Shown: positions 14,926 through 57,253, numbered from the stretch's first letter. The stretch is DNA of 64,000 nucleotides from an uncultured bacterium (GCA_942636505.2 CALOGB020000012.1:2657-66656); one strand, 5' to 3'. Numbers and translations: made by a program. The notes: generated by a model from the letters alone, not told the origin.

Positions 14926-15002
14926 TGGTGCACCCAGAGCGATTCGAACGCCCGACCCTCAGATTCGTAGTCTGATGCTCTATCCAGCTGAGCTATGGGT
15001 GC
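14926..15002 (-). tRNA. tRNA-Arg (anticodon ACG)
   Basis: Reverse complement is GCACCCATAGCTCAGCTGGATAGAGCATCAGACTACGAATCTGAGGGTCGGGCGTTCGAATCGCTCTGGGTGCACCA. It folds as a cloverleaf with anticodon loop CU-ACG-AA and an encoded CCA. Confidence 0.95.
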
Positions 15003-15052
15003 ATCGCCGTACCGTGACCGGTTCGACAAGCCCGCCGTGAAGCGGAAAATCC

Positions 15053-15129
15053 TGGTGCACCCAGAGCGATTCGAACGCCCGACCCTCAGATTCGTAGTCT
15101 GATGCTCTATCCAGCTGAGCTATGGGTGC
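15053..15129 (-). tRNA. tRNA-Arg (anticodon ACG), tandem identical copy
   Basis: Identical 77-nt sequence 50 nt after the first copy. Confidence 0.95.
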
Positions 15130-29422: not shown

Positions 29423-29498
29423 GGGGCCGTAGCTCAGATGGGAGAGCGCTGCAATCGCACTGCAGAGGTCAAGGGTTCGATTCCCTTCGGCTCCACCA
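29423..29498 (+). tRNA. tRNA-Ala (anticodon CGC)
   Basis: GGGGCCGTAGCTCAGATGGGAGAGCGCTGCAATCGCACTGCAGAGGTCAAGGGTTCGATTCCCTTCGGCTCCACCA. It has the G3:U70 Ala identity pair, anticodon loop AU-CGC-AC and an encoded CCA. Confidence 0.95.
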
Positions 29499-40353: not shown

Positions 40354-43300
40354 TTGGCTACAGTACCGAGTATCGAGCAGGACGAGCCGACCGTTTCGGT
40401 GTTCCAGAGCGACCTTCCCATAGATGAGAAGCTGGATCGCGCGCGGACGGAGCTCCTCGATCTCTCGGCGAGAAACCGGCTGCTCAATATGCCACGCGCG
40501 GCGAAAGGTGCGAAGGCGGTCGAAGTCGTCGACGAGGTCAGCAGCGAGATTTTCCGCATGCTCGTCGTTGAGACGCGCCCCTTCTCGTTCCTCGCGGGCA
40601 AAGCGGCATCTGCCGGTGAGCAAGCCAGCGAAGACGTGCCCGCGGAGGAGTCGGACGAGATTGCCGATCTCGCGCAACCCGAGGATGACGTTGCCGATGA
40701 ACGCGGTGTTTTTTCGCGCCACGTCGATACCCGTCTCCAGACCCGACTAACGCCAAAGGGCCTGCAAAAGCGCCTGCTCGAGCTCTACTTCGACGCGCGC
40801 ACGCTGGAGGAGGAGCAGGGCGTCAACATCCTCTATCTAACGCTTGGTGCGCTCAAGTGGATCGACCCTAACAATGCCGCGAACATCCGGTTCGCACCCC
40901 TGGTACTCGTACCCGTGCAACTCGAGCGCGGCAATGCGGGCGAGAAGTTCAAGCTGAGGATGCGGCAGGAGGACTACGCGTCCAACCTGTCGCTGGAGGC
41001 TTTTCTCGACCGCGCGCACGGCATCCGGCTGCCGACGTTTGAGGGCGGTGAGGATTTCGATCCGGTCGCCTATTTCAAGGACGTCGCCGAGGCTGTGTCG
41101 TCGAAACCGGGCTGGGAGGTTCAGCCCGACGTCGTCGTGCTCGGCTTCTTCTCGTTCGCCAAGTTCCTGATGTACCGCGATCTCGATCCGCAGACCTGGC
41201 CGAACGGCGGCAAGATCACCGAGCGTGCGCTCGTCCGCGGGCTGCTGGCCGACGGGTTCGAGGGCAGCGCGGGCATGATCCCCGAAGATGCCAATATCGA
41301 TCCGTTCATCCCGCCGTCCGAGATGCTCCACATCGTCGACGCCGACAGCTCGCAGGCCTTGGCTGTGCACGAGGTGCGTGGCGGTCGCGACATGGTCATC
41401 CAGGGGCCGCCGGGAACGGGAAAGAGCCAGACGATCGCCAACATCATCGCGTCCGCGATCGCCGACGGAAAGACCGTGCTGTTTGTCGCGGAGAAGATGG
41501 CCGCACTCGAAGTGGTCAAACGACGGCTCGACGCGACCGGCGTCGGCGATGCGTGTCTCGAGCTCCACAGCAACAAGGCCAACAAGCGCGCGGTGCTCGA
41601 AGAACTGCGCCGGACGTGGGAGCTCGGCGCCCCCAAGCATCAGGATGCCGGGAGCCTGCATGCCCGCCTAACGATCGCGCGCGATAGCCTGAACGGTCAC
41701 GTCCAGCGGATGCACGCGCCGCATCCGGCATCCGGGCTGACCCCCTATCAGGTCATCGGCCAGTTGAGCCGGCTACGGCTGGACGGCGAGAAGCCCGGCG
41801 ATCTGACGCTGGTCGAGCCGGAAACTTGGTCGGTCGATGATTTCGCCGAGCGTCACAATGTGATCGGCGAGCTTGCCGAACGGATCACGCTTATCGGTCG
41901 TCCCGGCGAGCACGCATGGCGCGGGGTCGGCCTGTCCTCGATCCTGCCGACCGAGGTTGAGCGGCTGGAGGAACGGCTCTCGGTAGTGATCGAGAAGCTC
42001 GCCGCACTCGACGGGGCGCAGAGCAGTCTTGCGACCCGTCTCGAACTGCCGCCGATGGCGTCGCTCGGCGACATCGGAGTCCTCGTCGTGCTGGCGAACC
42101 GGGTTGCACAGGCGCCCGCGATCGAGGGCACTGCACTCGCGGACACGGTTTGGGAGCATCGCTTCGACGAGATCGACCGGCTGCTCGTAACCGGCCAGCG
42201 CCACGCCCATCTCCGTGGCCATCTCGTATCGTCTGTAACCGAGAGCGGGTGGACGACCGACCTGTCGGAAGCGATCGCCGCCCTGCGCTCGCTGCCGTCG
42301 ACGTTCGCGCTCGCGGATTTCGAACAGGTCGGTGCGCTGGCGGCAGCGCTGCCCCGATTGCAAGCCGAAGCGGGAGCGTTGGCGCGGACGATCGGCCGTG
42401 ATGCGCCCAATTCAATCGACGAAGCCCGTAAGCTTGCCGCGATCGGTGAGCGCGTTGCCAATGCACCTCATGCCGACGCGGATGCCTTTGCCTCCGACGT
42501 CTGGAACTCGGGAGTCGAACGCGCCGCCGATGTCGTCGATGCGGTTGCCGCGTACGAGGACGCGGTCGCGGGGACGACCGGAAAGCTGACCGATGCAGCC
42601 TGGGATATGGAGCTGACGGCTGCGCGGGTCACGCTCGCCTCGCACGGCAGCGGGTTCATGAAGATGTTCAGCGGAGAGTGGCGACGTACGAACCGGCTCG
42701 TCCGATCCGTGCTGACGTCGCCGACAACACCGCTCGACGAGACTCTGCTTTTGCTGGACGCGCTCGCGAAAGGGCAGGCCGCGAAGCGGACGATCGAGCA
42801 GGAGAATGATTTTGCGCGCTCCGCCTTCGGGGCGGAATGGCGCGGCGAGCGCTCGACGTCGGCGCCGCTGTTGAGCGTGGTCGAGTGGATGCGCTCGCTC
42901 CGCGGGCTAGGCGCCGAACCCCGCATCATCGCCGCGCGCCGGCCCGACCGCAGCGAGATCAGCACGCGCGCTTCACGAACGACGGCGTTGATCGAGCAGT
43001 TGGCACCTTCACTGTCAGCTCTGTGGTCCAGCTTGGGTGACGTGCAGGCGCTGGCGTTCGGCGATGTGTCGGCAGCGGACCGCGCCGATCTCGAAGCCTT
43101 GATGACCGTCGTGACACGGCTGCATGCCGCCGACACCGCCAGTTCGGCCGTGCTGGTTTCCGCGCCTGCTAATCTCAACGATCGCCGCCAGATTCTGGAC
43201 GATCTCGCCGAGCTTCAGCGCAAGGATGCAGCGATCGCCGAACTGGCAGAGGTTGGCACCGCGGCGTTCGGAACGGCATGGCGTGGGACTTCGTCCGAAT

Positions 43301-45990: not shown

Positions 45991-48900
45991 ATGGGGGATA
46001 AGACTGGCAATTTCGCATTCCTGGCAGCCCACAGCCCGCAGCTGACCAAGCTGGGTCAACTCGCCGAACGGTATTTTTCGGATGACCCCCCCGCCGCGCT
46101 GGTCAAGTTGCGACAGTTTGCGGAAATCACGGCGAAGACCGTTGCTGCGCGGCATGCCCTGCTTCCCACACAGACAGTGTCGTTCGATGACGTTCTGAGG
46201 ACGCTGCGAGCCCGGTCGATCCTGCCGCGTGAAATCGCCGATCTGTTCTATCACCTGAAGCGCGCTGGGAATGTCGCTGCTCACGAGGATACGGGCAGCG
46301 CGGCCGATGTGCTGACGTCGCTAAAGATTGCTCGTGAGATCGGCATCTGGTTTCACCGGAGTTACGAAGGTCACCCCGATTTTAAACCGGGTCCGTTCGT
46401 CCCGCCGGTGCCGCCGACCGATTTCGGCAGGGCGCTCGCCGACGAACTCGCGCAGTTGAAGAGAACCATCGCTACGAGCGCGGATAGCGAAGCGAAGGCT
46501 GTCCTTGCCGCGCAGGACGCCGAACAAAGACGGCGGGTAAGCGAAAATCGGGCGGAGCAGAACGCGCGGGACAAGGTGTTCTGGGAGAGCTACGCAGCCG
46601 AGACCGAAGCGGCGTTGCGTTCCGCAGAAGCCGCTCTGTCGGGCATGCAGTCCCAAGCCGCTGCGATCCCGCAACATCAGCTCGATATGCTGACGAACCT
46701 AGCCGCCGACGGTGCGAAGCGGGTGGAACTGGATGAGCGGACAACGCGCGTTCTGATCGACGACCGACTCCGGGCCGCTGGATGGACTGTCGATAGTGTG
46801 GGCCTCCGGCACGCGCTTGGGGCCAGGCCAGATTATGTCACGCCGATCGCGATCGCGGAGTGGCCGACCAAGAGCGGTCCCGTTGACTATGCCCTGTTCA
46901 TCGAGGGCCGCTGTGTCGGCGTGATCGAGGCTAAGCGCCAGAGCAGCGACGTGCCCGGCCGGATCGGTCAAGCTAAGCGCTACGCCCGCGACATCACGCT
47001 GACGCCGGACGAGCTGCCCGTCGGTGGCCCTTGGACCCAGAACGAAGACCGTTTTCGCATACCCTTCGTCTTCGCCACCAACGGCCGGGCTTATGTGAAG
47101 CAGCTGGCGACCAAGTCCGGCACTTGGTTCTGGGATGCCCGTGTCCCCGGCGATCCGCCGCGTGCGCTTGTCGAGTGGTTCTCGCCCCGCGATCTCAGCG
47201 AGCGACTGGAGCAGGACATTGCCGCCGAGCCCAGCATCGTCGCCGATCGCGAACTTGGCGTTACCGGACTGCGCCCCTATCAGCGCGATGCGATCACCGC
47301 GGTCGAGAGCGCCATTGCCCGCGGGCAACGCCAGATCCTTCTCGCAATGGCGACCGGCACCGGTAAAACCCGCCTCGCTATCGCGCTGATGTACGAACTG
47401 CTCCGCACTCAGCGCTTTCGCCGCATCCTGTTCCTTGTCGATCGCAATGCGCTCGGTCGCCAGACGCTCGACGCGATGAGCACCACCGACACCAGCGGCT
47501 TCTACAAGTTCGATCAGGTCTTCCCCGTAGCCGACATGACGCGCAAATTCCCCGAGGCGACCGACCGCGTCCAGGTCGCCACCGTGCAGGCCATGATCCA
47601 CCGCGTCTTCGACAATCCCGGCGCCGACCGACCCACCCCCGGCACCTACGACCTCGTGATCGTCGACGAAGCGCACCGCGGCTACACGCTCGATGCCGAG
47701 CTGCGAGAAGACGATCTTGGCTTTCGCAACCTCGACGATTACCTGTCCGCCTATCGCCGCGTGCTCGACTATTTCGACGCCACCAAGGTCGCGCTGACCG
47801 CCACCCCGGCGCTCCACACCCGTGAGATCTTCGGCGCGCCGGTGTTCCGCTATGGCTATCGTCAGGCGGTGATCGACGGCTATCTGATCGATCACCGCCC
47901 GCCGCGCCGCATCACCACCGCGCTCAGCCAGACCGGGATCAGCTTCGAACAAGGCGAGGAGGTCACGATCTTCGACCCGCGCACCGGCGAGGTCGACCTG
48001 TTCGATCTTGAGGACCAGGTCGATTTCGAGATCGCGCAGTTCAACAAGAAGGTTCACACCCGCGCCTTCAACCGCGCGGTCGCCGAAGCCATCGCCGCCG
48101 AATGCCCGCCCGACCAGCCCGGGAAGACGCTGCTCTTCGCCGCGCGGGACGACCATGCCGACATCCTCGTCGACGAACTCCGTGCCGCGCTTACGGCGGA
48201 ATACGGACCGCAACCGCACGACCTCGTCGAGAAGATCACCGGCTCGATCGACAAGCCGCTCGACCGCATCAAGGCGTTCAAGAACGATCCGCGCCCCAAA
48301 TACGTCGTCACCGTCGACCTTCTTACGACCGGCATCGACGTCCCCGCGATCACCAACCTGGTGTTCGTCCGCCGCGTCAACAGCCGCATCCTCTACGACC
48401 AGATGATCGGCCGCGCGACGCGCCGCTGCGACGAGATCGGCAAGGAGTATTTCCGTATCTTCGACGCGGTCGACATTTACGCCAACCTTCAGGACGTCAC
48501 CGACATGCGCCCGGTCGTGGTCAATCCCGGCCTGTCCTTCGGAACGCTGGTTGGCGACATCGAGCGCGCCACCACTGACGAGGACCGCGCCTTCGTCCGC
48601 GACCAGATCGTCGTCAAACTCCGCCAGCGAATCAAATACATCAACGACGACCGCCGCGACGCCCTCGAACCTGTCGTCGGCCCTCTCGGCGACCTTGCCG
48701 ACCGCCTCAAGGACGCGCCCGCCGCCGACACCATCGCGCTCTTCCGCCAGCACCCGTCGCTCGCCACCGTGCTCGATGCCGCCAACCCGGCCCGCACCGG
48801 TGACGGCATCTACATCTCCGAGCACGACGACGAACTCGTCTCGATCGAAGATGATTTCGGCGAAAAGGCGACCCCCGGCGATTATATCGAGAGCTTCGAG

Positions 48901-49380
48901 GCGTATGTCCGCGACAACATGAACGCGGTCCCCGCAATGATCGCCGCCACCCAGCGCCCGCGCGAGCTGACCCGCAAGGAGCTAAAGGAACTCGCCATCC
49001 TTCTAGACGCCAAGGGCTTCTCCGAGGCGAGACTCCGCCGCGCCTATGGCAGCGCGCGCAACGCCGACATCGCTGCGCATATCATTGGTTTCGTCCGCCA
49101 GGCAGCGCTGGGCGACCCGCTCGTCGCGTATGAAACGCGCGTCGACAACGGCGTCCAGCGCATCCTCGCCAGTCGTACCTGGACAGCCAAGCAGAAGCAG
49201 TGGCTCGCCCGCATCGGTCGCGTCCTGCGCGCGCAGCCGGTCGGCGATCCCGAGATACTCTCGGACCCCTTATTTGCACAACATGGCGGCTTCGCAGTGG
49301 TCGACCGGGAGTTCGATTCCGGGCTAGGGGAGGTGCTCAAAGACCTGAACGCCGCGATCTGGGATACCCGCGCGGCATGA
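45991..49380 (+). CDS. hsdR: type I restriction enzyme R subunit (COG4096-type) with DUF4145-like N-terminal domain
   Basis: - N-terminus: FAEITAKTVAA...HLKRAGNVAAHE.
- Nuclease motif: VDYALFIEGRCVGVIEAKR.
- Helicase motifs: LRPYQRDAI, MATGTGKT, VIVDEAHRG and LTATP.
- It starts 30 nt after the helicase stop. Confidence 0.9.
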   Translation: MGDKTGNFAFLAAHSPQLTKLGQLAERYFSDDPPAALVKLRQFAEITAKTVAARHALLPTQTVSFDDVLRTLRARSILPREIADLFYHLKRAGNVAAHEDTGSAADVLTSLKIAREIGIWFHRSYEGHPDFKPGPFVPPVPPTDFGRALADELAQLKRTIATSADSEAKAVLAAQDAEQRRRVSENRAEQNARDKVFWESYAAETEAALRSAEAALSGMQSQAAAIPQHQLDMLTNLAADGAKRVELDERTTRVLIDDRLRAAGWTVDSVGLRHALGARPDYVTPIAIAEWPTKSGPVDYALFIEGRCVGVIEAKRQSSDVPGRIGQAKRYARDITLTPDELPVGGPWTQNEDRFRIPFVFATNGRAYVKQLATKSGTWFWDARVPGDPPRALVEWFSPRDLSERLEQDIAAEPSIVADRELGVTGLRPYQRDAITAVESAIARGQRQILLAMATGTGKTRLAIALMYELLRTQRFRRILFLVDRNALGRQTLDAMSTTDTSGFYKFDQVFPVADMTRKFPEATDRVQVATVQAMIHRVFDNPGADRPTPGTYDLVIVDEAHRGYTLDAELREDDLGFRNLDDYLSAYRRVLDYFDATKVALTATPALHTREIFGAPVFRYGYRQAVIDGYLIDHRPPRRITTALSQTGISFEQGEEVTIFDPRTGEVDLFDLEDQVDFEIAQFNKKVHTRAFNRAVAEAIAAECPPDQPGKTLLFAARDDHADILVDELRAALTAEYGPQPHDLVEKITGSIDKPLDRIKAFKNDPRPKYVVTVDLLTTGIDVPAITNLVFVRRVNSRILYDQMIGRATRRCDEIGKEYFRIFDAVDIYANLQDVTDMRPVVVNPGLSFGTLVGDIERATTDEDRAFVRDQIVVKLRQRIKYINDDRRDALEPVVGPLGDLADRLKDAPAADTIALFRQHPSLATVLDAANPARTGDGIYISEHDDELVSIEDDFGEKATPGDYIESFEAYVRDNMNAVPAMIAATQRPRELTRKELKELAILLDAKGFSEARLRRAYGSARNADIAAHIIGFVRQAALGDPLVAYETRVDNGVQRILASRTWTAKQKQWLARIGRVLRAQPVGDPEILSDPLFAQHGGFAVVDREFDSGLGEVLKDLNAAIWDTRAA

Positions 49381-49393
49381 TGAAAGACTTCGC

Positions 49394-50872
49394 ATGAATC
49401 CCTCCGCCGATCTGGTGAACAAGCTGTGGCGCCTGTGCACGCTGCTCCGCAAGGATGGCGTGACCTACCAGCAATATGTCACCGAGCTTACCTATCTGCT
49501 CTTCCTCAAGATGGCATCCGAGCAGAAGGACGAGAGCCGCATCCCCGAGCAGTATCGCTGGAGCGCGCTGAAATCCACGAACGAGACCGAGGTGTTGACG
49601 CGCTATCGCCAAGCGCTGATTGATCTCGGCGACGGCGCCAAGATCTCCGACCGCTCGATCGTCGCGATCTTCCAGAACGCTGCGACGATCGTGCGCGAGC
49701 CCGTCAATCTGCGCAAGCTGATCGATGCGATCGATGGCCTGCACTGGTATAGCGAGGAGCGCGATGCGTTCGGCGATGCCTATGAGGGCCTGCTCCAGAA
49801 GATGGCGGAGGAAACTAAGCGCGGCGCCGGCCAGTATTTCACCCCGCGCGTGCTCATCGACGTGATCGTCCACCTGATGCAGCCCGAGCCGGGCGAGGTC
49901 ATCCAGGATCCAGCGGCGGGCACTGGCGGCTTCCTGATCGCCGCCGACCGCTACATGCGCGCGACCACGGACGATTATTTCACGCTTTCGCCCAAGCAGC
50001 AGGCATTCCAGCTGAACCAGGCACTGCGCGGCGTCGAGAACGTGCCCGACACCTTTCGCCTGCTCCAGATGAACCTGCATTTGCATAACATCGACCCCGA
50101 TCACCTCGATCTGGCCGATACGCTAAGCCCGCGCGGCGCGGCACCGAAGTACAAGAATGCAGACCTGATCCTGACCAACCCGCCGTTCGGCCCGGCCGGC
50201 GGCCCCCCGACGCGCGACGACCTGACGATTACCGATAGCGTCTCGTCCTATCAGTTCCCGTTCGTCGAACACGTCATCCGCTCGCTCAAACTCGGCGGTC
50301 GCGCCGCGGTAGTGGTGCCTGACAACGTCCTATTCGACGATGGCAAGGGCAAGCTCCTGCGCCAGCGTTTAATGAGCTGGTGCAACCTCCACACCATTCT
50401 GCGCTTGCCGGTCGGCATCTTCTACGCGCAGGGCGTGAAGACCAATGTCCTCTTTTTCACCCGCGCTGACGACGAAGCCCCGCTCAAAGACGCGACCGAA
50501 GCCGTCTGGATCTACGACGCCCGCGCCAACATGCCGAATTATGGCAAGACCAATCCGTTCAAGGCGTCTGATCTTGGCGATTTTGTCGCAGCGTTTGGTG
50601 ACGATCCCGATGGCGGTTTGGAGCGTACCGACGAGGGCGAGACTGGGCGATTCCGTTGCTTCAAGCGTGAAGAGATCACGGCGCGGGGCGACAATCTTGA
50701 TATTGGCTGGCTCAAGGATACCAGCGGGGATCCTGAGGATGGTCTGGAAACGCCAGACGAGATCTCTGCGGCTATCGAATTGCATTTGGCAAACGCGATG
50801 GTCGAGGTTCGCGCACTGATTGACGAGTTAGACGATGGTGCAACTGAACCACTTCTGGCGTCCGCGGAATGA
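49394..50872 (+). CDS. hsdM: type I R-M N6-adenine DNA methyltransferase subunit
   Basis: GQYFTPR, DPAAGTGGFL and LILTNPPFG. Confidence 0.93.
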   Translation: MNPSADLVNKLWRLCTLLRKDGVTYQQYVTELTYLLFLKMASEQKDESRIPEQYRWSALKSTNETEVLTRYRQALIDLGDGAKISDRSIVAIFQNAATIVREPVNLRKLIDAIDGLHWYSEERDAFGDAYEGLLQKMAEETKRGAGQYFTPRVLIDVIVHLMQPEPGEVIQDPAAGTGGFLIAADRYMRATTDDYFTLSPKQQAFQLNQALRGVENVPDTFRLLQMNLHLHNIDPDHLDLADTLSPRGAAPKYKNADLILTNPPFGPAGGPPTRDDLTITDSVSSYQFPFVEHVIRSLKLGGRAAVVVPDNVLFDDGKGKLLRQRLMSWCNLHTILRLPVGIFYAQGVKTNVLFFTRADDEAPLKDATEAVWIYDARANMPNYGKTNPFKASDLGDFVAAFGDDPDGGLERTDEGETGRFRCFKREEITARGDNLDIGWLKDTSGDPEDGLETPDEISAAIELHLANAMVEVRALIDELDDGATEPLLASAE

Positions 50873-52197
50873 CCTTGCCGAAGGGTTGGGCGCTTGGGCG
50901 CGTAGATGAACTAGCTGGACCGAACGGACTTGTTAGTGACGGGGACTGGGTGGAATCAAAGGATCAAGAACCTGGTGGTGACGTCCGGCTCACCCAACTC
51001 GCGGACGTTGGGGAAGGAAGATTTCGAAACAAATCATTCCGCTTTATGACTAAATCAGCGGCCGACCGGCTTCGCTGCACATTCCTGAAGCCGGGCGACG
51101 TTTTGATCGCGCGTATGCCCGATCCAATTGGTCGTGCATGCATCTTCCCGGGGCTAGAGCAACCGGCGGTTACGGCGGTCGACGTTATGATCTGGCGGAC
51201 CGACGGCGGAGTCGCCGAAGCGGAGTGGTTTGTTCGTTGCGTTAATAGTCCCGAAGTTCGCATTTTGATGGCAGCAGGAGCAGGAGGAACAACACGTCAG
51301 CGGATCGCTGGGGGCCGTATAAAGGAACTGGTACTTCCGCTACCTCCCAAAAATGAACAGCGCCGCATCGTTGCAAAGCTGGACGCGCTAATGACCCGCA
51401 TTTCCCTTACCAGGAAGGAACTGGATCGTGTGCCGGGACTTGCCGAACGATTGCGGATCGCAATTTTAAGCCGAGCTTTTACTGGGAAAGCCCCGTCGAA
51501 GACCGTCCGAGAACTAGTTCAGTTTGTAACTAGCGGATCGAGAGGGTGGGCAAAATATTATTCGGATACGGGGCCAGCATTCATTCGTGTCGGGGACGTG
51601 CGCCGACGCGACATAGCACTCGACCTTAACGATATTCAGTCTGTTCAGCCGCCGAGGGGAGCCGAGGGGGCTCGAACCGGAGTTCGTGGAGGTGATGTTG
51701 TTATCACGATAACGGCTGACCTTGGTAGAGTTGGTGTCGTACCTGAAAGTTTGGGGCTAGGTTTCGTCAATCAACATGTCGCGCTAGCGCGGCCGCGTGA
51801 TGTTGGAATGGCGCCCTGGATAGGCTGGTACTTGTCCTCTGACGCGGGTCAGAAACAAATGCTTGCGAAGAACAGAGGTGTCACAAAGGCGGGACTCGGT
51901 TTGGACGACATCCGTGATGTCCTCATTCCAGTTCCAACGCCGGATGTACGAGCTGCCATGTTGAATGAGATCAACATGGCCTTCGCCCGCGCCGACCGTC
52001 TCGAAGCCGAAGCCGCCCGCGCCCGCGCCCTCCTCGACCGGCTCGAGTCCGCGATCCTCGCTAAGGCGTTCCGCGGCGAATTGGTGCCGCAGGATCCAAA
52101 CGACGAGCCCGCCAGCGTCCTGCTCGACCGCATCCGGGCCGAACGTGCGGCCTCGCCGAAACCGAAACGCGGGCGTCGCGCGGCGGCAGACGCCTGA
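50869..52197 (+). CDS. hsdS: type I R-M specificity subunit (two target-recognition domains)
   Basis: Two TRDs are separated by a conserved helix (EQRRIVAKLDAL). The C-terminal conserved helix is LDRLESAILAKAFRGELVPQDPNDEPA. ATGA overlap with hsdM. Confidence 0.9.
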   Translation: MTLPKGWALGRVDELAGPNGLVSDGDWVESKDQEPGGDVRLTQLADVGEGRFRNKSFRFMTKSAADRLRCTFLKPGDVLIARMPDPIGRACIFPGLEQPAVTAVDVMIWRTDGGVAEAEWFVRCVNSPEVRILMAAGAGGTTRQRIAGGRIKELVLPLPPKNEQRRIVAKLDALMTRISLTRKELDRVPGLAERLRIAILSRAFTGKAPSKTVRELVQFVTSGSRGWAKYYSDTGPAFIRVGDVRRRDIALDLNDIQSVQPPRGAEGARTGVRGGDVVITITADLGRVGVVPESLGLGFVNQHVALARPRDVGMAPWIGWYLSSDAGQKQMLAKNRGVTKAGLGLDDIRDVLIPVPTPDVRAAMLNEINMAFARADRLEAEAARARALLDRLESAILAKAFRGELVPQDPNDEPASVLLDRIRAERAASPKPKRGRRAAADA

Positions 52198-52289: not shown

Positions 52290-52778
52290 ATGATCGTCGG
52301 CGCGCCGCAGATCCTCTCCGACGAATGGATGATCATCGGCCGTCAGGAGGATACCGGCTTCGGCGGCCGGATCGATCGGCTCGCGATCGCCCCCGACGGC
52401 GGTCTGGTCCTGATCGAACTGAAACGCGGGCGCACACCGCGCGACGTCGTGGCGCAGGCGATCGACTATCCCACCTGGACTGACGCGCTCGATGCGGAGG
52501 CGATCGGCCGCGTTTATGCGCGCTTCTCGAACGGCGGCAATCTCGCCGCGGATTTCCGCGCGCGGTTCAGCCTGCTGCTCGACGAGGCGACGCTCAACCA
52601 GAGCCTGCAAATCGTGATCGTCGCGGCCAGCCTTGATGCCAGTTCGGAGCGAATCGTCGGCCGTCTCGCCAAACGCGGGATCGCGATCAACGTGCTGTGC
52701 TTTCAGGTGTTCGACACCGACGCTGGCCAACTCCTAGGTGTTTCATCCCACGGTTTGATGGTGCGATCCTTTCGTTGA
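52290..52778 (+). CDS. NucS/RecB-like PD-(D/E)xK nuclease-domain protein, 3' end replaced by IS sequence
   Basis: GGRIDRLAIAPDGGLVLIELKRGRTPRDVVAQAIDY carries the D...E-x-K core. The last 14 codons and the stop lie inside the IS left end. Confidence 0.55.
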   Translation: MIVGAPQILSDEWMIIGRQEDTGFGGRIDRLAIAPDGGLVLIELKRGRTPRDVVAQAIDYPTWTDALDAEAIGRVYARFSNGGNLAADFRARFSLLLDEATLNQSLQIVIVAASLDASSERIVGRLAKRGIAINVLCFQVFDTDAGQLLGVSSHGLMVRSFR

Positions 52779-53753
52779 AATAGAAGGAAGCAGTATGGGA
52801 CAGGTACGTCACGGGAGCGCCACGACCACGCACGCCGTCAGAGCAACAATACAGCGATCGCGAGCTTCGCTCTCGATGCTGAGCCGGGAGCTCGGGATCA
52901 ACCCGAAGACGTTGGCGAAGTGGCGTAAACGAGCGACGGTTGAGGATTTGAAGACCGGGCCGAAGGCCCCTCACTCCACGACCTTGATCCACGCGGAGGA
53001 GGCAGCGGTCATCGCATTCCGGCCTCACACATTACTGCCGCTCGACGATTGCCTCTACGCGTTGCAGCCCTCGATCCCGCAGCTGACACGCTCAGCGCTG
53101 CACCGCTGCCTCCAGCGTTCTGGCATATCCCGTCTGCCGGACATCGAGGGGGACAAGCCGAATCGACAGCGCTTCAAGCGCTACCCGATCGGTTTCTTTC
53201 ACATAGACATCGCCGAGGTTCAGACTGCCGAAGGCAAGCTCTACCTGTTCGTCGGCATCGACCGCACGGGCAAGTTCGCGGCCACCCAGCTCGTCGACAA
53301 GGCAGACAGGCGAACGGCTTGGGAGTTCCTTGAACACTCGCTGAAAGCCGTGCCCTACCGCATTCACACGATCCTGACCGACAACGGCATCCAGTTCGCC
53401 GAGCAACCGCGCAACCGCAACACTGCCTGGTCGCGCCAAATGCGCTTCGACATGATCTGCGAGGCCAATGACATTGAGCACCGGCTTACCAAGCCGAACC
53501 ATCTTTGGACCAACGGTCAGGTCGAGCGGATGAACCGCACGATTAAGGAAGCGACCGTCAAACGCTTTCACTACGAGAGCCACGAGCAGTTGCGGGTTCA
53601 CCTCGCCGACTTCATGGCGGCCTACAATTTCGCCCGGCGGCTCAAAACGCTCAACGGCCTCACGCCTTACGAATACATCGCCAAAATCTGGACGTCAGAG
53701 CCGGATAGGTTCATCGTCGATACGATTTGACAGATGCCGGGACAAAACACCTA
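52735..53753 (+). mobile_element. IS481-family insertion sequence (ends approximate, +/-3 nt)
   Basis: Imperfect terminal inverted repeats TAGGTGTTTCATCCC (left) and GGGACAAAACACCTA (right) flank a DDE transposase. No target-site duplication was visible by eye. Confidence 0.8.
52795..53730 (+). CDS. IS481 family DDE transposase
   Basis: N-terminal HTH (LSRELGINPKTLAKWRKR). Catalytic pattern FFHIDI...ILTDNGIQF...WTNGQVERMN. Confidence 0.92.
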   Translation: MGQVRHGSATTTHAVRATIQRSRASLSMLSRELGINPKTLAKWRKRATVEDLKTGPKAPHSTTLIHAEEAAVIAFRPHTLLPLDDCLYALQPSIPQLTRSALHRCLQRSGISRLPDIEGDKPNRQRFKRYPIGFFHIDIAEVQTAEGKLYLFVGIDRTGKFAATQLVDKADRRTAWEFLEHSLKAVPYRIHTILTDNGIQFAEQPRNRNTAWSRQMRFDMICEANDIEHRLTKPNHLWTNGQVERMNRTIKEATVKRFHYESHEQLRVHLADFMAAYNFARRLKTLNGLTPYEYIAKIWTSEPDRFIVDTI

Positions 53754-54524
53754 ACTACGTTGTCGGAAGCGATCAATAACAAGGGCCTCAATCTGCGTTG
53801 CCTGGAGTCTTAGACTTGAGTTCCCGGCTCGGCGATATACGATCTCATCGCCATCTCTGCCTTTCTTGCAAACGGTTATCCTGTCGCGTCGTGGCTCGAT
53901 GGCCATTACACAGTAAGTCCCATTTTCCCATTCGACGACATGAGTGCGGAGGTAGCCGAGTGCCAGCCTATAATCAGGCAAGTTTGACTCCAGGGCATTG
54001 CCCAAGCGCAACATCCAGCCATCGTGGCTACTATTGCCCGCAATGTATGGATATTCGTTTTGGATCCCAAAAGCGGTGCCGTCATCGCAAAGTCCAATGA
54101 CTAAAGTCCCTCCATCAGCATTCATGAACGCAACGACCGTCTTAATGACCTCCTGAACGATTTGCTCATCAAACAAAACGTCAGCAGGAGTGTTCGGCTG
54201 AGCGATCAAGCGTCGTGTATTCAGACCCAGCGTTTGTTTGTATTCGACTAAGTGCCCCTCGCCAAGGCGGACAGCCTCGTCGAAAAGTCGTCGGCCATCG
54301 TCTGCACTAAATGCACTTCGAAAGGTCCGTGCGGTTTCCAATTCGCCTTCGTCAAGCGGGGGGTTGCACGTCAGATTCGTTTGGTGACAAATATCTTTGA
54401 TGCGACCAACCGCTGCAAGGGCGCCTAGGCCACCGAACTCAGGAAGAGAACGAAAGTCGTTAATCGAGCATTCGACAAGACCTTTTGATGCCGTTGCAAC
54501 GAAATCGAGGAGAGTCCGCAGCAC
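53751..54524 (-). CDS. AlbA_2 / Schlafen-type putative DNA-binding domain protein with uncharacterised N-terminal ~110 aa
   Basis: EGHLVEYKQTL...VIKTVVAFMNADGGTLVIGLCDDGTAFGI...VYRRAGNSS. The GTG start is 1 nt after the upstream gene's stop. Its stop codon coincides with the IS right end. Confidence 0.6.
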   Translation of the reverse strand: MLRTLLDFVATASKGLVECSINDFRSLPEFGGLGALAAVGRIKDICHQTNLTCNPPLDEGELETARTFRSAFSADDGRRLFDEAVRLGEGHLVEYKQTLGLNTRRLIAQPNTPADVLFDEQIVQEVIKTVVAFMNADGGTLVIGLCDDGTAFGIQNEYPYIAGNSSHDGWMLRLGNALESNLPDYRLALGYLRTHVVEWENGTYCVMAIEPRRDRITVCKKGRDGDEIVYRRAGNSSLRLQATQIEALVIDRFRQRS

Positions 54525-54525
54525 C

Positions 54526-56460
54526 TTACGCTACCAGCCGACAGCGCCCCAGAAGATCATCCGCCATTAAGGCGGCTCGTCCCTCCCAAAATCCCAGAAG
54601 CTGCGGGGGATCAGAGATCAAGTCATCGTAGCATGAGCGGTCTATAAAGACTTTGGAAAAGAAATCTGATCCACTCTCAAAGGTTATCAAATGCTCGGCA
54701 AGAAACGTTGCAGGTAGCTTCGCTTTCCACAAGTTATTAGTCGATCGAGATAAAGGCATAAGATTGGCAATACAATTCACGTAATCTCGTCCGGCTATAT
54801 CTTTCACAAGAATACCACGCTTATCACCCGATGCGTTGTCCGCACACCACCCCTTTGGAACAATGTGATGTAGTTCCGAACCTCCTGCAGAGTTGATCCC
54901 GATCTCGACACCATCAATATCACGCGACGTTGATGCGAGCATTGGGAGTAGCACGGCTGCCTGCTTAGCTCCACCAGGCCGTCCATTCGTTAAAATGTCA
55001 ACGAGGGCTTCCTTTTCGGGCAATGCCGTTTTGAAGAGCTCGCCAAATACGCTGTCGCAATACGCCAACCAACGCGACTTCGAGTCGTAATCGACCCGAC
55101 GACGGAGGAGGGCTTTCATCGCGCCTAAATCTTTCGGAAGCTGAGTCAAGAAGCCCTGATCGTATCGGCTTGTAAGCGCGTTACGCCAGAAAAACGCTTT
55201 ATATAGAGAATTAAGATCTCCTATCTCCCATCCTAAATGGAAGCTTGGTGGATCAAACTCCTTATGCCATCGCAGCGCGGCGTATATGGTAGCTGTGACT
55301 GGATAGGGGCACTTATCGTATCCAAACGTGCCATCAGCAACCACATGTTGGAAGTCGCCGAGGAAACGAGCAAGAAGAACATCATTGGCCACTACATGTT
55401 GCCAGTGCTCCGCAGGCGTCGCGAGCAGGTCCGGTGACTTAATTGAATCAATTGTGGTGATGCGCTTGGCGCCACTTACCTGGCGTGGTTCAGGCTTATC
55501 AGGACGATCAAGAGCAACATAGGTCGCAGTGACGAGTTGTGCGGTGAGCTCTGGCCGACGTTCTGGCACGGCCCAGCCGACGGCACCGTCGATTTGTCCA
55601 AGATCGCGAATCCAATCTCTGATTTGTATCGGACCGTCAGCTGCTCCCTCCGTTTCCCGGTAAATCCAAGCATTGATCAAATCCACTGTTGATACCTTCA
55701 TGCCACTGAGGTTGAGGGTCTCAAAAATGTCGCAGATTTTTCCCAGATCATAAGTTTCCGGCACGATGCACGCTGCAAGTCGGGTCTCAGAAATTCCATC
55801 AAAGGCACTTTGAACAATCGAATCGCGTCGGTTCAGCTCCTCCGCATCAGGCAAAACGCCGCCAGGATAGTTTGCTGGGTTCTTGATTTCCTGTGCATAG
55901 CGATACCACTGACGAAGAACCGTCTCGCCGGGTATGTCACTTGCCAAGGGGAACAGGCCTTGACCGATGCACGCTGCGCTGGTTGTCAATCCGGCCCGAT
56001 CAAGATCTATAGTTTTTCGAAATATCACCCGTTCTAACGGATCCGGCTGGGCAGCGTTCAGAAAATACTTCCCAGCATATTTATTTGCTCGGTAATCGGG
56101 AGTGAAGCCAGCGAACGCCATTGCAATAGCCGTGCAACGTTGGCGACCGTCCAAAATTGCGTAAATCTTTGTAGCGTTTTCATCGTCGCCAAAGAAGCGG
56201 GTAACCGGCGACTTGGTCGACGCATTGTAATCTTGGAGAGACAGGCGCTCAAGATCGAGCGGATTCTTATCCGATTGGGCCCACAATGTGATCATGCCTA
56301 TCGGGTAGGCATCAATGATCGATGTCGCCAGGGACGCCACTGCAGAGGTGTCCCATACGAACTCTCGCTGGAATTTTGGAACCTGCCAGACTGCTGTCCT
56401 CAGCGAGTCAATCATCTGCGAAATTGTATGTTCACTGATTCGTATTCCGCTCACTGTCAC
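54526..56460 (-). CDS. DUF262 (ParB-like NTPase) + DUF1524 (His-Me/HNH) protein, GmrSD/SspE/BrxU-like type IV restriction candidate
   Basis: N-terminus WQVPKFQREFVWD...YPIGMITLW...ILDGRQRCTAI. C-terminus GSELHHIVPKGW...NCIANLMPLSRSTNN. Confidence 0.75.
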   Translation of the reverse strand: MTVSGIRISEHTISQMIDSLRTAVWQVPKFQREFVWDTSAVASLATSIIDAYPIGMITLWAQSDKNPLDLERLSLQDYNASTKSPVTRFFGDDENATKIYAILDGRQRCTAIAMAFAGFTPDYRANKYAGKYFLNAAQPDPLERVIFRKTIDLDRAGLTTSAACIGQGLFPLASDIPGETVLRQWYRYAQEIKNPANYPGGVLPDAEELNRRDSIVQSAFDGISETRLAACIVPETYDLGKICDIFETLNLSGMKVSTVDLINAWIYRETEGAADGPIQIRDWIRDLGQIDGAVGWAVPERRPELTAQLVTATYVALDRPDKPEPRQVSGAKRITTIDSIKSPDLLATPAEHWQHVVANDVLLARFLGDFQHVVADGTFGYDKCPYPVTATIYAALRWHKEFDPPSFHLGWEIGDLNSLYKAFFWRNALTSRYDQGFLTQLPKDLGAMKALLRRRVDYDSKSRWLAYCDSVFGELFKTALPEKEALVDILTNGRPGGAKQAAVLLPMLASTSRDIDGVEIGINSAGGSELHHIVPKGWCADNASGDKRGILVKDIAGRDYVNCIANLMPLSRSTNNLWKAKLPATFLAEHLITFESGSDFFSKVFIDRSCYDDLISDPPQLLGFWEGRAALMADDLLGRCRLVA

Positions 56461-57253
56461 CCCCGACGATACTATCGGCCGATGCTACATAAAGGTCGGT
56501 GAGTGGCCAACCCTTGGCGCAACTTTCGCTACAGCATAGGTAACAAAACTCGCTACAGGGGTGCTGTAAGAAAACCTTCAAACTCAATGGCCTGACGGAG
56601 ATTGGTCAGGGAGACAGGATGCTAGCCGTCTATTTTGACGGTCAACCAACGGAATGCGGAATGGCGATGCCGGTTGGCGTATCAGAACCGTGACCTTGGC
56701 CCGGCGCATCATGTCGACGCCGTTCGCGCTGTAGCCCCTGTAGGTGTGAAGCCGCCATCACACCCGCCAATTTGTGGCCGATCGGTTCATGGCATGGCTG
56801 CACGTTCGATCATGCCGGTTCGGTATACCGAGTAGAACGAAACGTTATTGTCTTGTGGAAGCGATTGCTTTCCTGCTTCGGTTAGGCAGACCAGGTCAAT
56901 CGCACCATGCCGGACCTCGACTTGTTCTGGCAGAAGAAAGCCAGCGCAACTGACCCCGGCCGTTGCCGCCATCGGCTGAGACGTCCGCTGAGATCGTCGA
57001 TAGCCTAGAGACTCGTGGGAAAATCCGATCGGGGCGGCAAAACACGGTTAATCTTTGGTATCGCGCTGGTATCGCGAATTACTCGTTCTTGCCTACATTA
57101 CCGTCTCGATCGACGAGGGATCCACGGTATTCTGCGGTTTTCTGTTGCTCACCGCACATTTGTAATGCGGGGTAAGGTGATCGATTACCCAAGGGCCCAG
57201 CCCGGGGTCATGTTGGATGATTGGCTTGTGGGTGTAGTTGCGCTCGTCGTCTA

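What the first reader, a model, noticed from the sequence alone, without database searches (positions are those of the whole stretch)
53751..56460. Low-GC two-gene operon: GmrSD-like DUF262/DUF1524 enzyme translationally coupled to an AlbA_2/Schlafen-like protein
The 644-aa protein has the DUF262 NTPase N-terminus (KFQREFVWD, DGRQR) and a DUF1524 His-Me finger C-terminus (HHIVPKGW...N). This is the architecture of GmrSD, BrxU and SspE modification-dependent nucleases.

Its TAA stop is followed after a single nucleotide by the GTG start of a 257-aa protein. That protein has an AlbA_2 (Schlafen-type) C-terminal domain and an unrecognisable N-terminal 110 aa.

Both genes are far below host GC (28/60 by hand count at 54601-54660). 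Single-gene GmrSD systems are the described norm. An obligately coupled AlbA_2 partner could be a sensor, an inhibitor/antitoxin or a specificity factor.
Basis: partly seen in the sequence, partly recalled or inferred. Interest (0 to 1): 0.7.

Follow-up and report, generated by a model that had tools for sequence, protein, structure and literature searches.

The report
Split GmrSD-like nuclease plus Schlafen operon
This is a horizontally acquired two-gene cassette, a GmrSD-type DNA nuclease followed by a small Schlafen-type nuclease, that stays together across several bacterial phyla. It is most likely a two-protein version of the DUF262-Schlafen fusion that was recently shown to defend E. coli against phages.

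Summary
Two minus-strand ORFs (54526-56460 and 53751-54524) are joined by TAA-G-GTG. Their GC is 51-52%, against 64% for the window.

ORF1 is a GmrSD-family protein:
- Pfam GmrSD_N, E 8e-23.
- Invariant DGRQR and HHxxP...N...N motifs.
- An AlphaFold model that matches BrxU over its full length.

ORF2 has two parts:
- An 85-aa N-terminal domain found only in this family.
- A Schlafen/AlbA_2 nuclease domain with the catalytic E-x4-E-x-K motif invariant.

The pairing recurs. In 18 of 19 loci with enough sequence, from Alpha- and Gammaproteobacteria, Actinomycetota and Acidobacteriota, the same ~255-aa Schlafen gene lies within about 13 nt downstream of the GmrSD-like gene. Flanking genes differ between loci. 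The two proteins' divergences track each other (r = 0.89).

A separate family fuses DUF262-DUF1524 and Schlafen into one ~707-aa protein. That architecture is published: AlbA_2 as an extra GmrSD domain (2017), and EcoSlfn7, a DUF262-Slfn fusion that defends against T7 (Nat Microbiol 2026).

The window therefore carries an apparently undescribed split, two-gene variant of a known kind. The partner is most likely an RNase effector, not an antitoxin. Interest is moderate.

The parts
54526..56460 (-). GmrSD-like gene (DUF262 + DUF1524-type His-Me finger). It is 644 aa from the first GTG. The probable real start is the GTG at 56454 (642 aa).
   Evidence: ORF. Pfam GmrSD_N, E 8e-23. More than 500 full-length homologues. 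AF2 model pLDDT 89.7. Foldseek: BrxU E 1e-14, then SspE and DndI. Start position.
55663..56421 (-). DUF262 / ParB-like NTPase domain (res 14-266) with FQREFVW and DGRQR motifs.
   Evidence: Pfam PF03235 covers res 14-266. The profile matches BrxU 7p9k at E 6e-13 over res 10-134. Invariant columns are listed.
54691..54888 (-). His-Me finger (DUF1524-type) region, res ~525-590: ELHHIVPKGWC...NLMPLSRSTNNLWK.
   Evidence: H531, H532, P535, N566 and N575 are invariant in 29 homologues. 21/29 members hit PF07510. The region aligns to the BrxU HNH region 468-571.
54522..54528 (-). Gene junction TAA-G-GTG (stop of gene 1, one base, start of gene 2).
   Evidence: Sequence read. The start is confirmed by alignment with homologues that begin MPxxxxDFV. 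Called gene-to-gene distances in the other loci with gene calls run from a 1-nt overlap to 13 nt, apart from one start call in L081 that overlaps by 35 nt and is likely called too far upstream.
53751..54524 (-). Partner gene, 257 aa: family-specific N-terminal domain plus Schlafen/AlbA_2 nuclease domain.
   Evidence: ORF. Pfam SLFN_AlbA_2. AF2 pLDDT 93, pTM 0.89. Foldseek top hits are the SAMD9 tRNase domain, SLFN13/14/12/5/11 and bacterial AlbA_2 structures 2kyy and 3lmm.
54270..54524 (-). N-terminal domain of the partner (res 1-85). Predicted topology is H-E-H-H-E-E. It has no Pfam match.
   Evidence: Secondary structure. A profile search of 1.84 billion representatives gave 49 hits. All were N-termini of 250-264-aa proteins or fragments, except two spurious repeat proteins. 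All 8 sampled full-length hits carry PF04326.
54237..54260 (-). Schlafen catalytic motif E89-x4-E94-x-K96 (EGHLVEYK).
   Evidence: E89, E94 and K96 are invariant across 27 and 35 family members. The motif is defined as catalytic in PMC13056530 and 10.1101/2025.07.24.666596.
56461..57253 (.). 793-bp upstream region of intermediate GC (55%), presumably holding the promoter. It is not shared with the closest related locus.
   Evidence: GC. blastn homology to L081 stops at 56454. The scan found no convincing sigma-70 site in this stretch; the one promoter-like match in the scanned region lies inside the GmrSD-like gene (56252-56224).
52735..53753 (+). IS481-family element that abuts the 3' end of the operon. 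Its right inverted repeat contains the partner's stop codon.
   Evidence: NCBIfam transpos_IS481, E 6e-76. Inverted repeats at 52735-52749 and 53739-53753. Sequence reads.

Best explanation
The two genes form a self-contained, horizontally mobile anti-phage module. It is a split (two-polypeptide) counterpart of the published DUF262-Schlafen fusion defence proteins.

Gene 1 encodes a GmrSD-family enzyme with a ParB-like NTPase head and a His-Me finger DNA nuclease. Such enzymes recognise foreign, often modified, DNA. Gene 2 encodes a Schlafen-type nuclease with an intact E-x4-E-x-K active site. An 85-aa N-terminal domain, found only in this family, precedes it.

Proposed mechanism:
1. The tight junction keeps the two proteins made together.
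2. The N-terminal domain docks the Schlafen nuclease onto the GmrSD-like protein, replacing the covalent link of the fusion form.
3. When the GmrSD-like subunit engages phage DNA, invading DNA is cut by the His-Me finger.
4. The Schlafen subunit cleaves RNA (tRNA, by analogy), shutting down translation as a second, abortive layer.

Shown here: domain identities, motif conservation, conserved gene order, co-divergence, and the fact that the pair is the only unit conserved between loci. Shown in the literature: defence by a DUF262-Slfn fusion. Inferred: the physical complex, the activation logic and the substrates.
For: Domain identity:
- Pfam hits for both proteins.
- The profile matches BrxU.
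- High-confidence AF2 models. Foldseek best hits are BrxU, SspE and DndI for gene 1, and the SAMD9 tRNase domain and SLFN13/14/12 for gene 2.

Active sites:
- DGRQR, HHxxP, N566 and N575 are invariant.
- E89-x4-E94-x-K96 is invariant down to 19-27% identity. It matches the catalytic motif whose mutation abolishes pSlfn defence.

Linkage:
- 18 of 19 loci have the Schlafen partner directly downstream: L001-L004 and L007-L010; L081; L165-L167; L168-L172; L173.
- These loci span four phyla and have unrelated flanking genes.
- DNA homology to the closest relative covers exactly the two genes, 53773-56454.
- The pairwise-identity matrices of the two proteins correlate at r = 0.893, with 0 of 2000 Mantel permutations reaching that value.

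Fusion evidence (same domains in one protein):
- About 17 genome loci and 5 metagenome loci encode ~707-aa GmrSD_N + GmrSD_C + SLFN_AlbA_2 fusions.

Literature:
- AlbA_2 is listed as a C-terminal extra domain of DUF1524 proteins (PMC5714182).
- DUF262-Slfn fusions make up 1.8% of prokaryotic Schlafens. EcoSlfn7 reduces T7 plating about 540-fold (PMC13056530).

Context:
- The pair lies at the edge of a defence island holding a type I R-M system, a PDC-S11 remnant and a DUF4011 helicase-nuclease.
- Its low GC and GC3 indicate horizontal acquisition.
Against: - No experiment exists on this family. The physical interaction was not tested, because no multimer prediction was available.
- The window's GmrSD-like protein falls below Pfam's reach for GmrSD_C. 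It matches PADLOC models (HEC-05, PDC-M55C) only over its first ~120 residues.
- The fusion family is not the closest relative of the split family. Stand-alone DUF262-DUF1524 proteins score higher against the family HMM. The fusions' Schlafen domains are no closer to the partner than those of unrelated architectures. The analogy is therefore convergent rather than a simple gene fission.
- One locus (L005) has the GmrSD-like gene without the partner.
- Schlafen/AlbA_2 folds also bind DNA, as the SAMD9 DNA-bound structure 7ksp shows. RNA is therefore not a proven substrate.
- The mechanism of EcoSlfn7 itself has not been reported.
Confidence: 0.6

Rival explanations
1. The partner is a non-catalytic nucleic-acid-binding or specificity subunit. 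Its AlbA_2 fold and winged-helix-like N-terminal domain would target or tether the GmrSD-like nuclease to particular DNA or RNA. All cleavage would then be done by the His-Me finger.
For: - The AlbA superfamily is classically a DNA/RNA-binding fold (PMC5714182).
- Foldseek hits include the SAMD9 domain bound to DNA (7ksp) and SLFN5, described as DNA/RNA binding.
- The N-terminal domain has an H-E-H-H-E-E topology compatible with a winged helix.
- Public annotation reads 'AlbA family DNA-binding domain-containing protein'.
Against: - The E-x4-E-x-K catalytic triad is invariant across sequences only 19-27% identical. A pure binding module would not be expected to keep it.
- Mutating the same motif abolishes defence in a characterised prokaryotic Schlafen.
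- The winged-helix reading of the N-terminal domain rests on topology and on low-probability Foldseek hits only.
Confidence: 0.18
2. The partner is an inhibitor or antitoxin that holds a toxic GmrSD-like nuclease in check until infection. Alternatively the roles are reversed, with the GmrSD-like protein restraining a toxic Schlafen.
For: - The stop-start junction and tight gene spacing resemble toxin-antitoxin operons.
- SspE-type DUF262-DUF1524 proteins can arrest growth when unbalanced (PMC12707154).
- The partner evolves faster than the GmrSD-like protein, at 27% vs 45% mean identity.
Against: - Stand-alone GmrSD enzymes and single-chain DUF262-Slfn fusions work without a separate inhibitor.
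- An inhibitor would not need a conserved nuclease active site.
- A locus exists with an apparently intact GmrSD-like gene and no partner (L005). This argues against an essential antidote.
- In L010 the GmrSD-like gene is disrupted by an IS while the partner ORF remains open.
Confidence: 0.1
3. The module is not primarily anti-phage. It could be a selfish addiction or exclusion cassette of mobile elements, or a DNA/RNA-processing pair with a housekeeping or stress role.
For: - Many loci sit between housekeeping genes rather than in defence islands (L081, L169, L170, L173).
- About 30% of prokaryotic Schlafen genes are not defence-associated.
- Integrases or recombinases flank some loci.
Against: - Both domain families are established immune nucleases.
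- The window copy and L168 lie beside other defence genes: type I R-M and PDC-S11 in the window, and an AAA_15 + DUF4276 pair in L168.
- The patchy distribution across four phyla, with low GC in the window, is typical of defence cargo.
Confidence: 0.08
4. The adjacency is fortuitous, or an artefact such as a fusion gene broken by a sequencing error.
For: None beyond the fact that single-chain fusions of the same domains exist.
Against: - The two-gene form, with its own stop codon, its own start and a partner-specific 85-aa N-terminal domain, recurs in 18 loci from independent assemblies.
- The fusions lack that N-terminal domain. They match partner HMM positions ~70-250 only.
Confidence: 0.01

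Closest known systems
EcoSlfn7 / DUF262-Slfn fusions (prokaryotic Schlafen class; Perez Taboada et al., Nat Microbiol 2026, PMC13056530)
   Same: - The same three modules are present: a DUF262 NTPase head, a DUF1524-type HHxxP His-Me finger, and a Schlafen nuclease with E-x4-E-x-K.
- The order is the same, with Schlafen last.
- Both occur as isolated cargo or in defence islands.
- Defence is shown experimentally for the fusion.
   Different: - Here the Schlafen module is a separate polypeptide with an extra 85-aa N-terminal domain that the fusions lack.
- The GmrSD-like part is ~100 aa longer. It is only distantly related to the fusions' GmrSD part (HMM E ~1e-16 for the first 120 aa).
- The fusions match PADLOC PDC-M55C and HEC-05 over their full length. 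The window protein does not.
BrxU / GmrSD / SspE / DndI (GmrSD-family type IV restriction and PT-sensing nucleases)
   Same: - The fold and domain order match over the full length (Foldseek BrxU E 1e-14, SspE 3e-5, DndI 2e-4).
- The DGxQR NTPase motif and the H-N-N His-Me finger are present.
   Different: - Those enzymes act as single genes, as GmrS+GmrD, or as accessories of BREX/Ssp/Dnd. None is described with a dedicated Schlafen subunit.
- The nuclease motif here is HHxxP rather than (D/E)HxxP.
- Sequence identity to BrxU is only ~15%.
RorSlfn5 and other single-gene prokaryotic Schlafens (sensor-Slfn fusions)
   Same: - Schlafen nuclease core with the same catalytic motif.
- The modular sensor + effector logic applies.
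- tRNA anticodon-arm cleavage and abortive infection are shown for RorSlfn5.
   Different: - In those systems the sensor is fused in cis and recognises a phage protein.
- Here the presumed sensor is a separate GmrSD-type DNA enzyme that is itself a nuclease.
PADLOC candidates HEC-05 and PDC-M55C
   Same: They are DUF262-containing candidate defence proteins. The window protein's first ~120 residues match them (E 3e-20 and 6e-10).
   Different: The match covers the N-terminal head only, so the window protein is not a full-length member. The partner matches nothing meaningful in PADLOC 2.0.

Membership tests
GmrSD family (DUF262 + DUF1524 type IV restriction-like nucleases) | N-terminal DUF262 / ParB-like NTPase domain with the DGxQR motif. 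| tested here: met
   Pfam PF03235, E 8e-23, res 14-266. DGRQR at 104-108 is invariant in the family. The profile matches BrxU at E 6e-13.
GmrSD family (DUF262 + DUF1524 type IV restriction-like nucleases) | C-terminal DUF1524 His-Me finger ((D/E)HxxP ... N ... N). | tested here: met
   PF07510 is not detected in the window protein itself. It is detected in 21/29 aligned family members, best E 1.6e-6. H531, H532, P535, N566 and N575 are invariant. The full-length Foldseek match to BrxU has E 1e-14. The motif variant is HHxxP.
GmrSD family (DUF262 + DUF1524 type IV restriction-like nucleases) | NTP-stimulated cleavage of modified (hmC, glc-hmC, m5C or PT) DNA. | not testable with these tools
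   This needs biochemistry or phage assays.
Prokaryotic Schlafen (pSlfn) nucleases | SLFN/AlbA_2 fold. | tested here: met
   Pfam PF04326, E 6.5e-9. The AF2 model has pLDDT 93. Foldseek gives probability ~1.0 to the SAMD9 tRNase domain, SLFN13, SLFN14, SLFN12 and 2kyy/3lmm.
Prokaryotic Schlafen (pSlfn) nucleases | Catalytic E-x4-(E/D)-x-K motif. | tested here: met
   E89-GHLV-E94-Y-K96. All three residues are invariant in alignments A3 and A4.
Prokaryotic Schlafen (pSlfn) nucleases | Phage-triggered tRNA cleavage or defence phenotype. | not testable with these tools
   This needs an experiment.
DUF262-Slfn fusion class (EcoSlfn7-type) | DUF262 and Schlafen domains in one polypeptide. | tested here: not met
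   The two ORFs are separated by TAA plus one base. The same two-gene organisation is found in 18 loci. True fusions (~707 aa) form a distinct family.
PADLOC HEC-05 / PDC-M55C | Full-length match to the system's profile HMM. | tested here: not met
   Only res 10-119 match (profile positions 25-133 of 600). By contrast, the fusion proteins match PDC-M55C over positions 9-531 of 554.
Type II toxin-antitoxin pair | A small antidote gene that neutralises a toxin and has no catalytic requirement of its own. | tested here: inconclusive
   The tight operon fits. The partner's conserved nuclease active site and the partner-less locus L005 argue against it. Toxicity was not testable.

The most novel reading that the evidence does not exclude
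This would be the first multi-subunit Schlafen immune system. A GmrSD-type, NTP-dependent DNA sensor-nuclease would recruit and license in trans a Schlafen RNase through a dedicated 85-aa adaptor domain. One complex would then couple type IV-style restriction of phage DNA with tRNA-level translational shutdown. Because sensor and effector are naturally separate proteins, it would be directly testable how a DUF262 head controls a Schlafen nuclease. That question is still open even for the published fusion.
Probability: 0.35. Interest if true: 0.6.

Novelty: new variant of a known kind. Interest (0 to 1): 0.45.

Why it matters
Prokaryotic Schlafens have been presented as single-gene sensor-effector fusions. 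GmrSD enzymes have been presented as stand-alone nucleases or as BREX/Ssp/Dnd accessories.

A conserved operon, in which a GmrSD-type enzyme and a Schlafen nuclease are separate but co-inherited proteins, shows three things:
- The DUF262-Schlafen partnership has arisen more than once.
- It adds an unannotated family to defence catalogues. Members are currently labelled 'ATP-binding protein' or 'hypothetical'.
- It offers a naturally split system for dissecting which module senses and which one kills.

The advance is incremental rather than conceptual, because the fused form is already published and shown to defend.

Tried and rejected
It returned only 12 full-length family members, none above 54% identity. 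Closer relatives had to be fetched one at a time with the look-up of encoding contigs.
- The metagenome-contig scan with the partner alignment used a generic AlbA_2 motif. It returned only other Schlafen architectures plus 5 DUF262-Slfn fusions, and no split pairs. It said nothing about reverse linkage.
- One look-up (P0003) was redundant, because it returned the same locus as P0024.
- A sequence search of PDB with the partner alone found nothing. The profile search gave only marginal Schlafen hits. The fold comparison was needed to settle the question.
- PADLOC and NCBIfam gave no assignment for the partner and no full-length assignment for the GmrSD-like protein.
- No split pair was found in PLSDB plasmids or in INPHARED phages.
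- The supplementary tables of the Schlafen paper are not held as text. I could not check whether this partner family is among its 'unannotated fusions'.
- The promoter/terminator scan of the operon region found fewer sites than the shuffled controls, so it was uninformative.
- Rfam found nothing in the region.
- I considered that IS481 had truncated the partner. I rejected this because the protein is full length relative to 22 homologues.
- I considered the 'broken fusion' artefact. I rejected it, as set out under the rival explanations.

Full report
**Observation**

The window carries two minus-strand ORFs at the stated coordinates: 54526-56460 (644 aa, GTG start) and 53751-54524 (257 aa, GTG start).
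- GC is 51.2% and 51.9% for the two genes, against 63.5% for the whole window.
- Third-position GC is 0.51-0.52, against 0.78-0.80 in the neighbouring hsdM and hsdR.
- The low-GC tract runs from about 53.5 to 57.5 kb.

Four small corrections apply.
- The more likely start of gene 1 is the second GTG, at 56454. This gives MSGIRISE... as in homologues, and DNA homology to the closest relative also starts there.
- The unrecognised N-terminal part of gene 2 is about 85 aa, not 110.
- Pfam sees only GmrSD_N in the window's gene 1 product, not GmrSD_C.
- The partner's TAG stop lies inside the inverted repeat of an adjacent IS481 element.

**Gene 1**

Gene 1 encodes a GmrSD-family protein.
- Pfam GmrSD_N matches residues 14-266 at E 8e-23.
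- The protein has more than 500 homologues in the large protein collection. The top 120 are nearly all of similar length (592-691 aa) and 46-100% identical.
- An alignment of 29 of them is conserved end to end. Invariant features are FQRxFxW, DGRQR, the IFETLN...VS.VDLI block, and a C-terminal HHxxP...N...N His-Me finger (H531, H532, P535, N566, N575).
- 21 of the 29 reach Pfam GmrSD_C/DUF1524 at E <= 0.1, best 1.6e-6.
- A profile of the family hits BrxU (7p9k). The head matches at E 6e-13. The His-Me region aligns weakly but colinearly with BrxU residues 468-571.
- The AlphaFold model (pLDDT 89.7, pTM 0.83) finds BrxU over its full length (Foldseek E 1e-14), then SspE and DndI. Nothing else is significant.
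- PADLOC models (HEC-05, PDC-M55C, SspE) match only the first ~120 residues. NCBIfam has no model for it.

**Gene 2**

Gene 2 encodes a Schlafen-type protein with an extra N-terminal domain.
- Pfam SLFN_AlbA_2 matches residues 89-237 (E 6.5e-9).
- The model is very confident (pLDDT 93, pTM 0.89).
- Its best structural neighbours are the SAMD9 tRNase domain, SLFN13, SLFN14, SLFN12, SLFN5, SLFN11 and the bacterial AlbA_2 domains 2kyy and 3lmm, with probability ~1.
- Residues E89-x4-E94-x-K96 are invariant in alignments that reach 19-27% identity.
- This is the E-x4-(E/D)-x-K motif reported as catalytic in human and prokaryotic Schlafens. Its mutation abolishes defence and RNA cleavage by RorSlfn5.
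- The first 85 residues have predicted topology H-E-H-H-E-E and no Pfam match.
- A profile of this domain alone, searched against 1.84 billion representative proteins, found 49 hits. All were N-termini of 250-264-aa proteins or fragments, apart from two spurious repeat proteins. All 8 sampled full-length hits carry PF04326. The domain is therefore exclusive to this partner family.
- The protein is full length relative to its homologues.

**Linkage**

I examined every locus I could obtain with enough sequence on the relevant side.

| Source | Loci | Result |
|---|---|---|
| Species-representative genomes | L001-L004, L007-L010 | A partner homologue lies directly downstream of the GmrSD-like gene (HMM E 1e-22 to 1e-34) |
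| Closest relative (82% / 66% identity) | L081 | The pair sits alone between unrelated chromosomal genes (an OmpA-family protein and a BipA/TypA-type GTPase) |
| Forward look-ups (GmrSD-like at 47-61% identity: Mesorhizobium, Thalassospira, Alcanivorax, two metagenomic contigs) | L168-L172 | All five show a 252-261-aa SLFN_AlbA_2 gene 0-13 nt downstream |
| A further forward look-up (GmrSD-like P0059, named in its source as from Hoeflea sp. AS16) | L173 | Same arrangement |
| Reverse look-ups from distant partner homologues | L165-L167 | All three show the GmrSD-like gene immediately upstream; in L167 it is cut by the contig end |

- In total, 18 of 19 loci are paired.
- The exception, L005, is a Brevundimonas MAG that has a convergent DUF3883-like ORF instead of the partner.
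- In L010 an IS3-type element has split the GmrSD-like gene.
- Flanking genes differ in every locus. They range from housekeeping genes to integrases and other defence genes.
- blastn homology between the window and L081 covers 53773-56454 only, which is exactly the two genes.
- Across 16 pairs, the pairwise-identity matrices of the two proteins correlate at r = 0.893, and 0 of 2000 Mantel permutations reach that value. The partner diverges faster, at mean 27% vs 45% identity.
- The hosts span Alpha- and Gammaproteobacteria, Actinomycetota (Arthrobacter, Nocardioides) and Acidobacteriota. An incomplete betaproteobacterial locus (Aromatoleum) also carries the GmrSD-like gene.
The linkage is real.

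**A second, fused form**

The same searches exposed a separate family of ~707-aa proteins with Pfam GmrSD_N + weak GmrSD_C + C-terminal SLFN_AlbA_2.
- Their hosts include Rhodobacterales, Halomonas, Nitrosopumilus, Gracilibacteria and Flavobacteriales.
- Their GmrSD part matches PADLOC PDC-M55C and HEC-05 over its full length.
- It also carries an HHxxP His-Me motif.
- They lack the partner's N-terminal domain, matching partner HMM positions ~70-250 only.
- They are not the nearest relatives of the split family. Several stand-alone DUF262-DUF1524 proteins score higher against the family HMM. The fusions' Schlafen domains are no closer to the partner than those of other architectures.
- The GmrSD-Schlafen partnership therefore appears to have been assembled at least twice, once by fusion and once by operon. 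This inference rests on score comparisons, not on a tree.

**Literature**

- Jablonska et al. 2017 list AlbA_2 among the additional C-terminal domains of DUF1524/GmrSD proteins (PMC5714182).
- Perez Taboada et al. (bioRxiv 2025; Nat Microbiol 2026) surveyed 5,930 prokaryotic Schlafens. They found 1.8% fused to DUF262.
- They also showed that the DUF262-Slfn fusion EcoSlfn7 from E. coli UC4224 reduces T7 plating about 540-fold and acts on a broad range of phages.
- In the same work, an Ig-like-Slfn fusion cleaves tRNA anticodon arms on sensing a phage protein.
- They describe Schlafen immunity as single-gene sensor-effector fusions. No two-gene DUF262 + Slfn system is mentioned.
- Machnicka et al. 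2015 do not list AlbA_2 among the domains enriched near GmrSD genes.
- Searches combining GmrSD or DUF262 with Schlafen or AlbA_2 returned nothing further.
- Public annotations of partner homologues read 'ATP-binding protein', 'AlbA family DNA-binding domain-containing protein' or 'hypothetical protein'.

**Interpretation**

The best-supported reading is a self-contained, mobile, two-protein defence module that is functionally analogous to the DUF262-Slfn fusions.
- The GmrSD-like subunit supplies an NTPase head and a DNA-cutting His-Me finger. By family precedent it recognises foreign DNA.
- The Schlafen subunit keeps an intact nuclease site. It is most plausibly an RNase effector.
- Its family-specific N-terminal domain is the obvious candidate for docking onto the GmrSD-like protein, in place of a covalent link.
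- The near-zero intergenic distance favours co-production of the two proteins.

Shown here: domain identities, motif invariance, conserved adjacency, co-divergence, and delimitation of the cassette. Shown by others: defence by the fused form. Inferred: complex formation, trigger, substrates, and whether the outcome is direct restriction, abortive infection or both.

The rivals are less likely.
- A non-catalytic binding or specificity subunit, or an inhibitor/antitoxin, would not need the conserved catalytic motif.
- Fused, inhibitor-free forms exist.
- One locus has the GmrSD-like gene without the partner.

**Context in the window**

The cassette sits at the edge of a defence island.

| Coordinates | Feature |
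|---|---|
| 40354-45960 | 1868-aa DUF4011 / SF1 helicase / MTES_1575 nuclease / DUF3320 protein |
| 45991-52197 | hsdR-hsdM-hsdS (type I R-M) |
| 52290-~52740 | PDC-S11 gene, truncated at profile position 179 of 358 exactly where the IS begins |
| 52735-53753 | IS481 element, whose right end supplies the partner's stop codon |

The DNA on the two sides of the IS is not contiguous. The IS therefore accompanied a deletion or rearrangement. It may have replaced the operon's native 3' end.

**Verdict**

The recurrent-linkage prediction is borne out. The finding is a new, apparently undescribed split variant of a known and recently validated kind, not a new kind of system. Interest is moderate. The split organisation offers a convenient way to separate sensor and effector functions, but a specialist aware of the DUF262-Slfn fusions would not be greatly surprised.

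Noticed in passing
window 52735-53753: An IS481-family element (311-aa transposase at 52795-53730) with 15-nt terminal inverted repeats at 52735-52749 and 53739-53753. No clean target-site duplication is visible. The right repeat contains the TAG stop of the Schlafen partner gene, so the operon's native 3' end and terminator have been replaced.
   Followed up: partly
window 52290-52778: A remnant of a PADLOC PDC-S11 candidate defence gene (E 1e-55). It matches only profile positions 31-179 of 358. Homology stops at the left end of the IS481 element and the missing half is not on the other side. The IS is therefore flanked by non-contiguous DNA, pointing to a deletion or rearrangement.
   Followed up: partly
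window 40354-45960: An 1868-aa ORF with DUF4011, SF1-helicase (AAA_11/AAA_12), MTES_1575 restriction-endonuclease-like and DUF3320 domains. It lies directly upstream of a type I R-M operon: hsdR 45991-49380, hsdM 49394-50872 and hsdS 50869-52197. Together these form a defence island next to the finding.
   Followed up: no
window 50500-52000: GC dips to 0.55-0.57 over the 3' end of hsdM and over hsdS, against ~0.63-0.69 on either side. This may reflect exchange of the specificity subunit.
   Followed up: no
window 56461-57253: A 793-bp stretch of intermediate GC (55%) lies upstream of the GmrSD-like gene. It has only short ORFs (61-80 aa), no Rfam hit and no homology to the closest related locus. 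Its content is unexplained; it could hold the promoter or be a remnant of the mobile element.
   Followed up: partly
window 14926-15129 and 29423-29498: Two tandem identical-scoring tRNA-Arg(ACG) genes, and a tRNA-Ala(CGC) gene.
   Followed up: no
L010 7224-8431: In an Acidobacteriaceae MAG, the GmrSD-like gene of the same two-gene module is split by an IS3-type insertion (transposase ORFs on the opposite strand). The Schlafen partner ORF stays open.
   Followed up: partly
L005 5977-9327: This is the only unpaired locus. A Brevundimonas MAG carries an apparently intact 638-aa GmrSD-like gene. It is followed by a convergent 308-aa ORF with a DUF3883-like C-terminus (IEVKST...) instead of the Schlafen partner. 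The assembly contains ambiguous bases.
   Followed up: partly
L056 2096-4297, and P0059 (locus L173): Hoeflea sp. AS16 appears to carry both forms. L056, on contig NZ_JBBMQQ010000011.1 (130,929 bp), holds a 734-aa DUF262-Slfn fusion. P0059, a split-family GmrSD-like protein, has a longest contig of the same length. Co-residence on one contig is inferred from the matching contig length only.
   Followed up: partly
L168 6193-7938: In Mesorhizobium (CP034444.1) the pair sits between a tyrosine integrase and an AAA_15/AAA_21 ATPase followed by a DUF4276 protein. That pair resembles a PARIS-like defence pair.
   Followed up: no
L086, L087, L092, L103, L104, L109 (metagenome contigs): Very large ORFs (1244-1319 aa) carry a C-terminal Schlafen domain. 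Many 300-670-aa proteins also have C-terminal Schlafen domains with unidentified N-terminal regions. These architectures were not examined further.
   Followed up: no
window 56416-56460 (P0023): The collection's own gene call for the GmrSD-like protein is 629 aa, starting at the internal ATG (M16). This would remove conserved N-terminal residues. Homologues support the GTG at 56454.
   Followed up: yes
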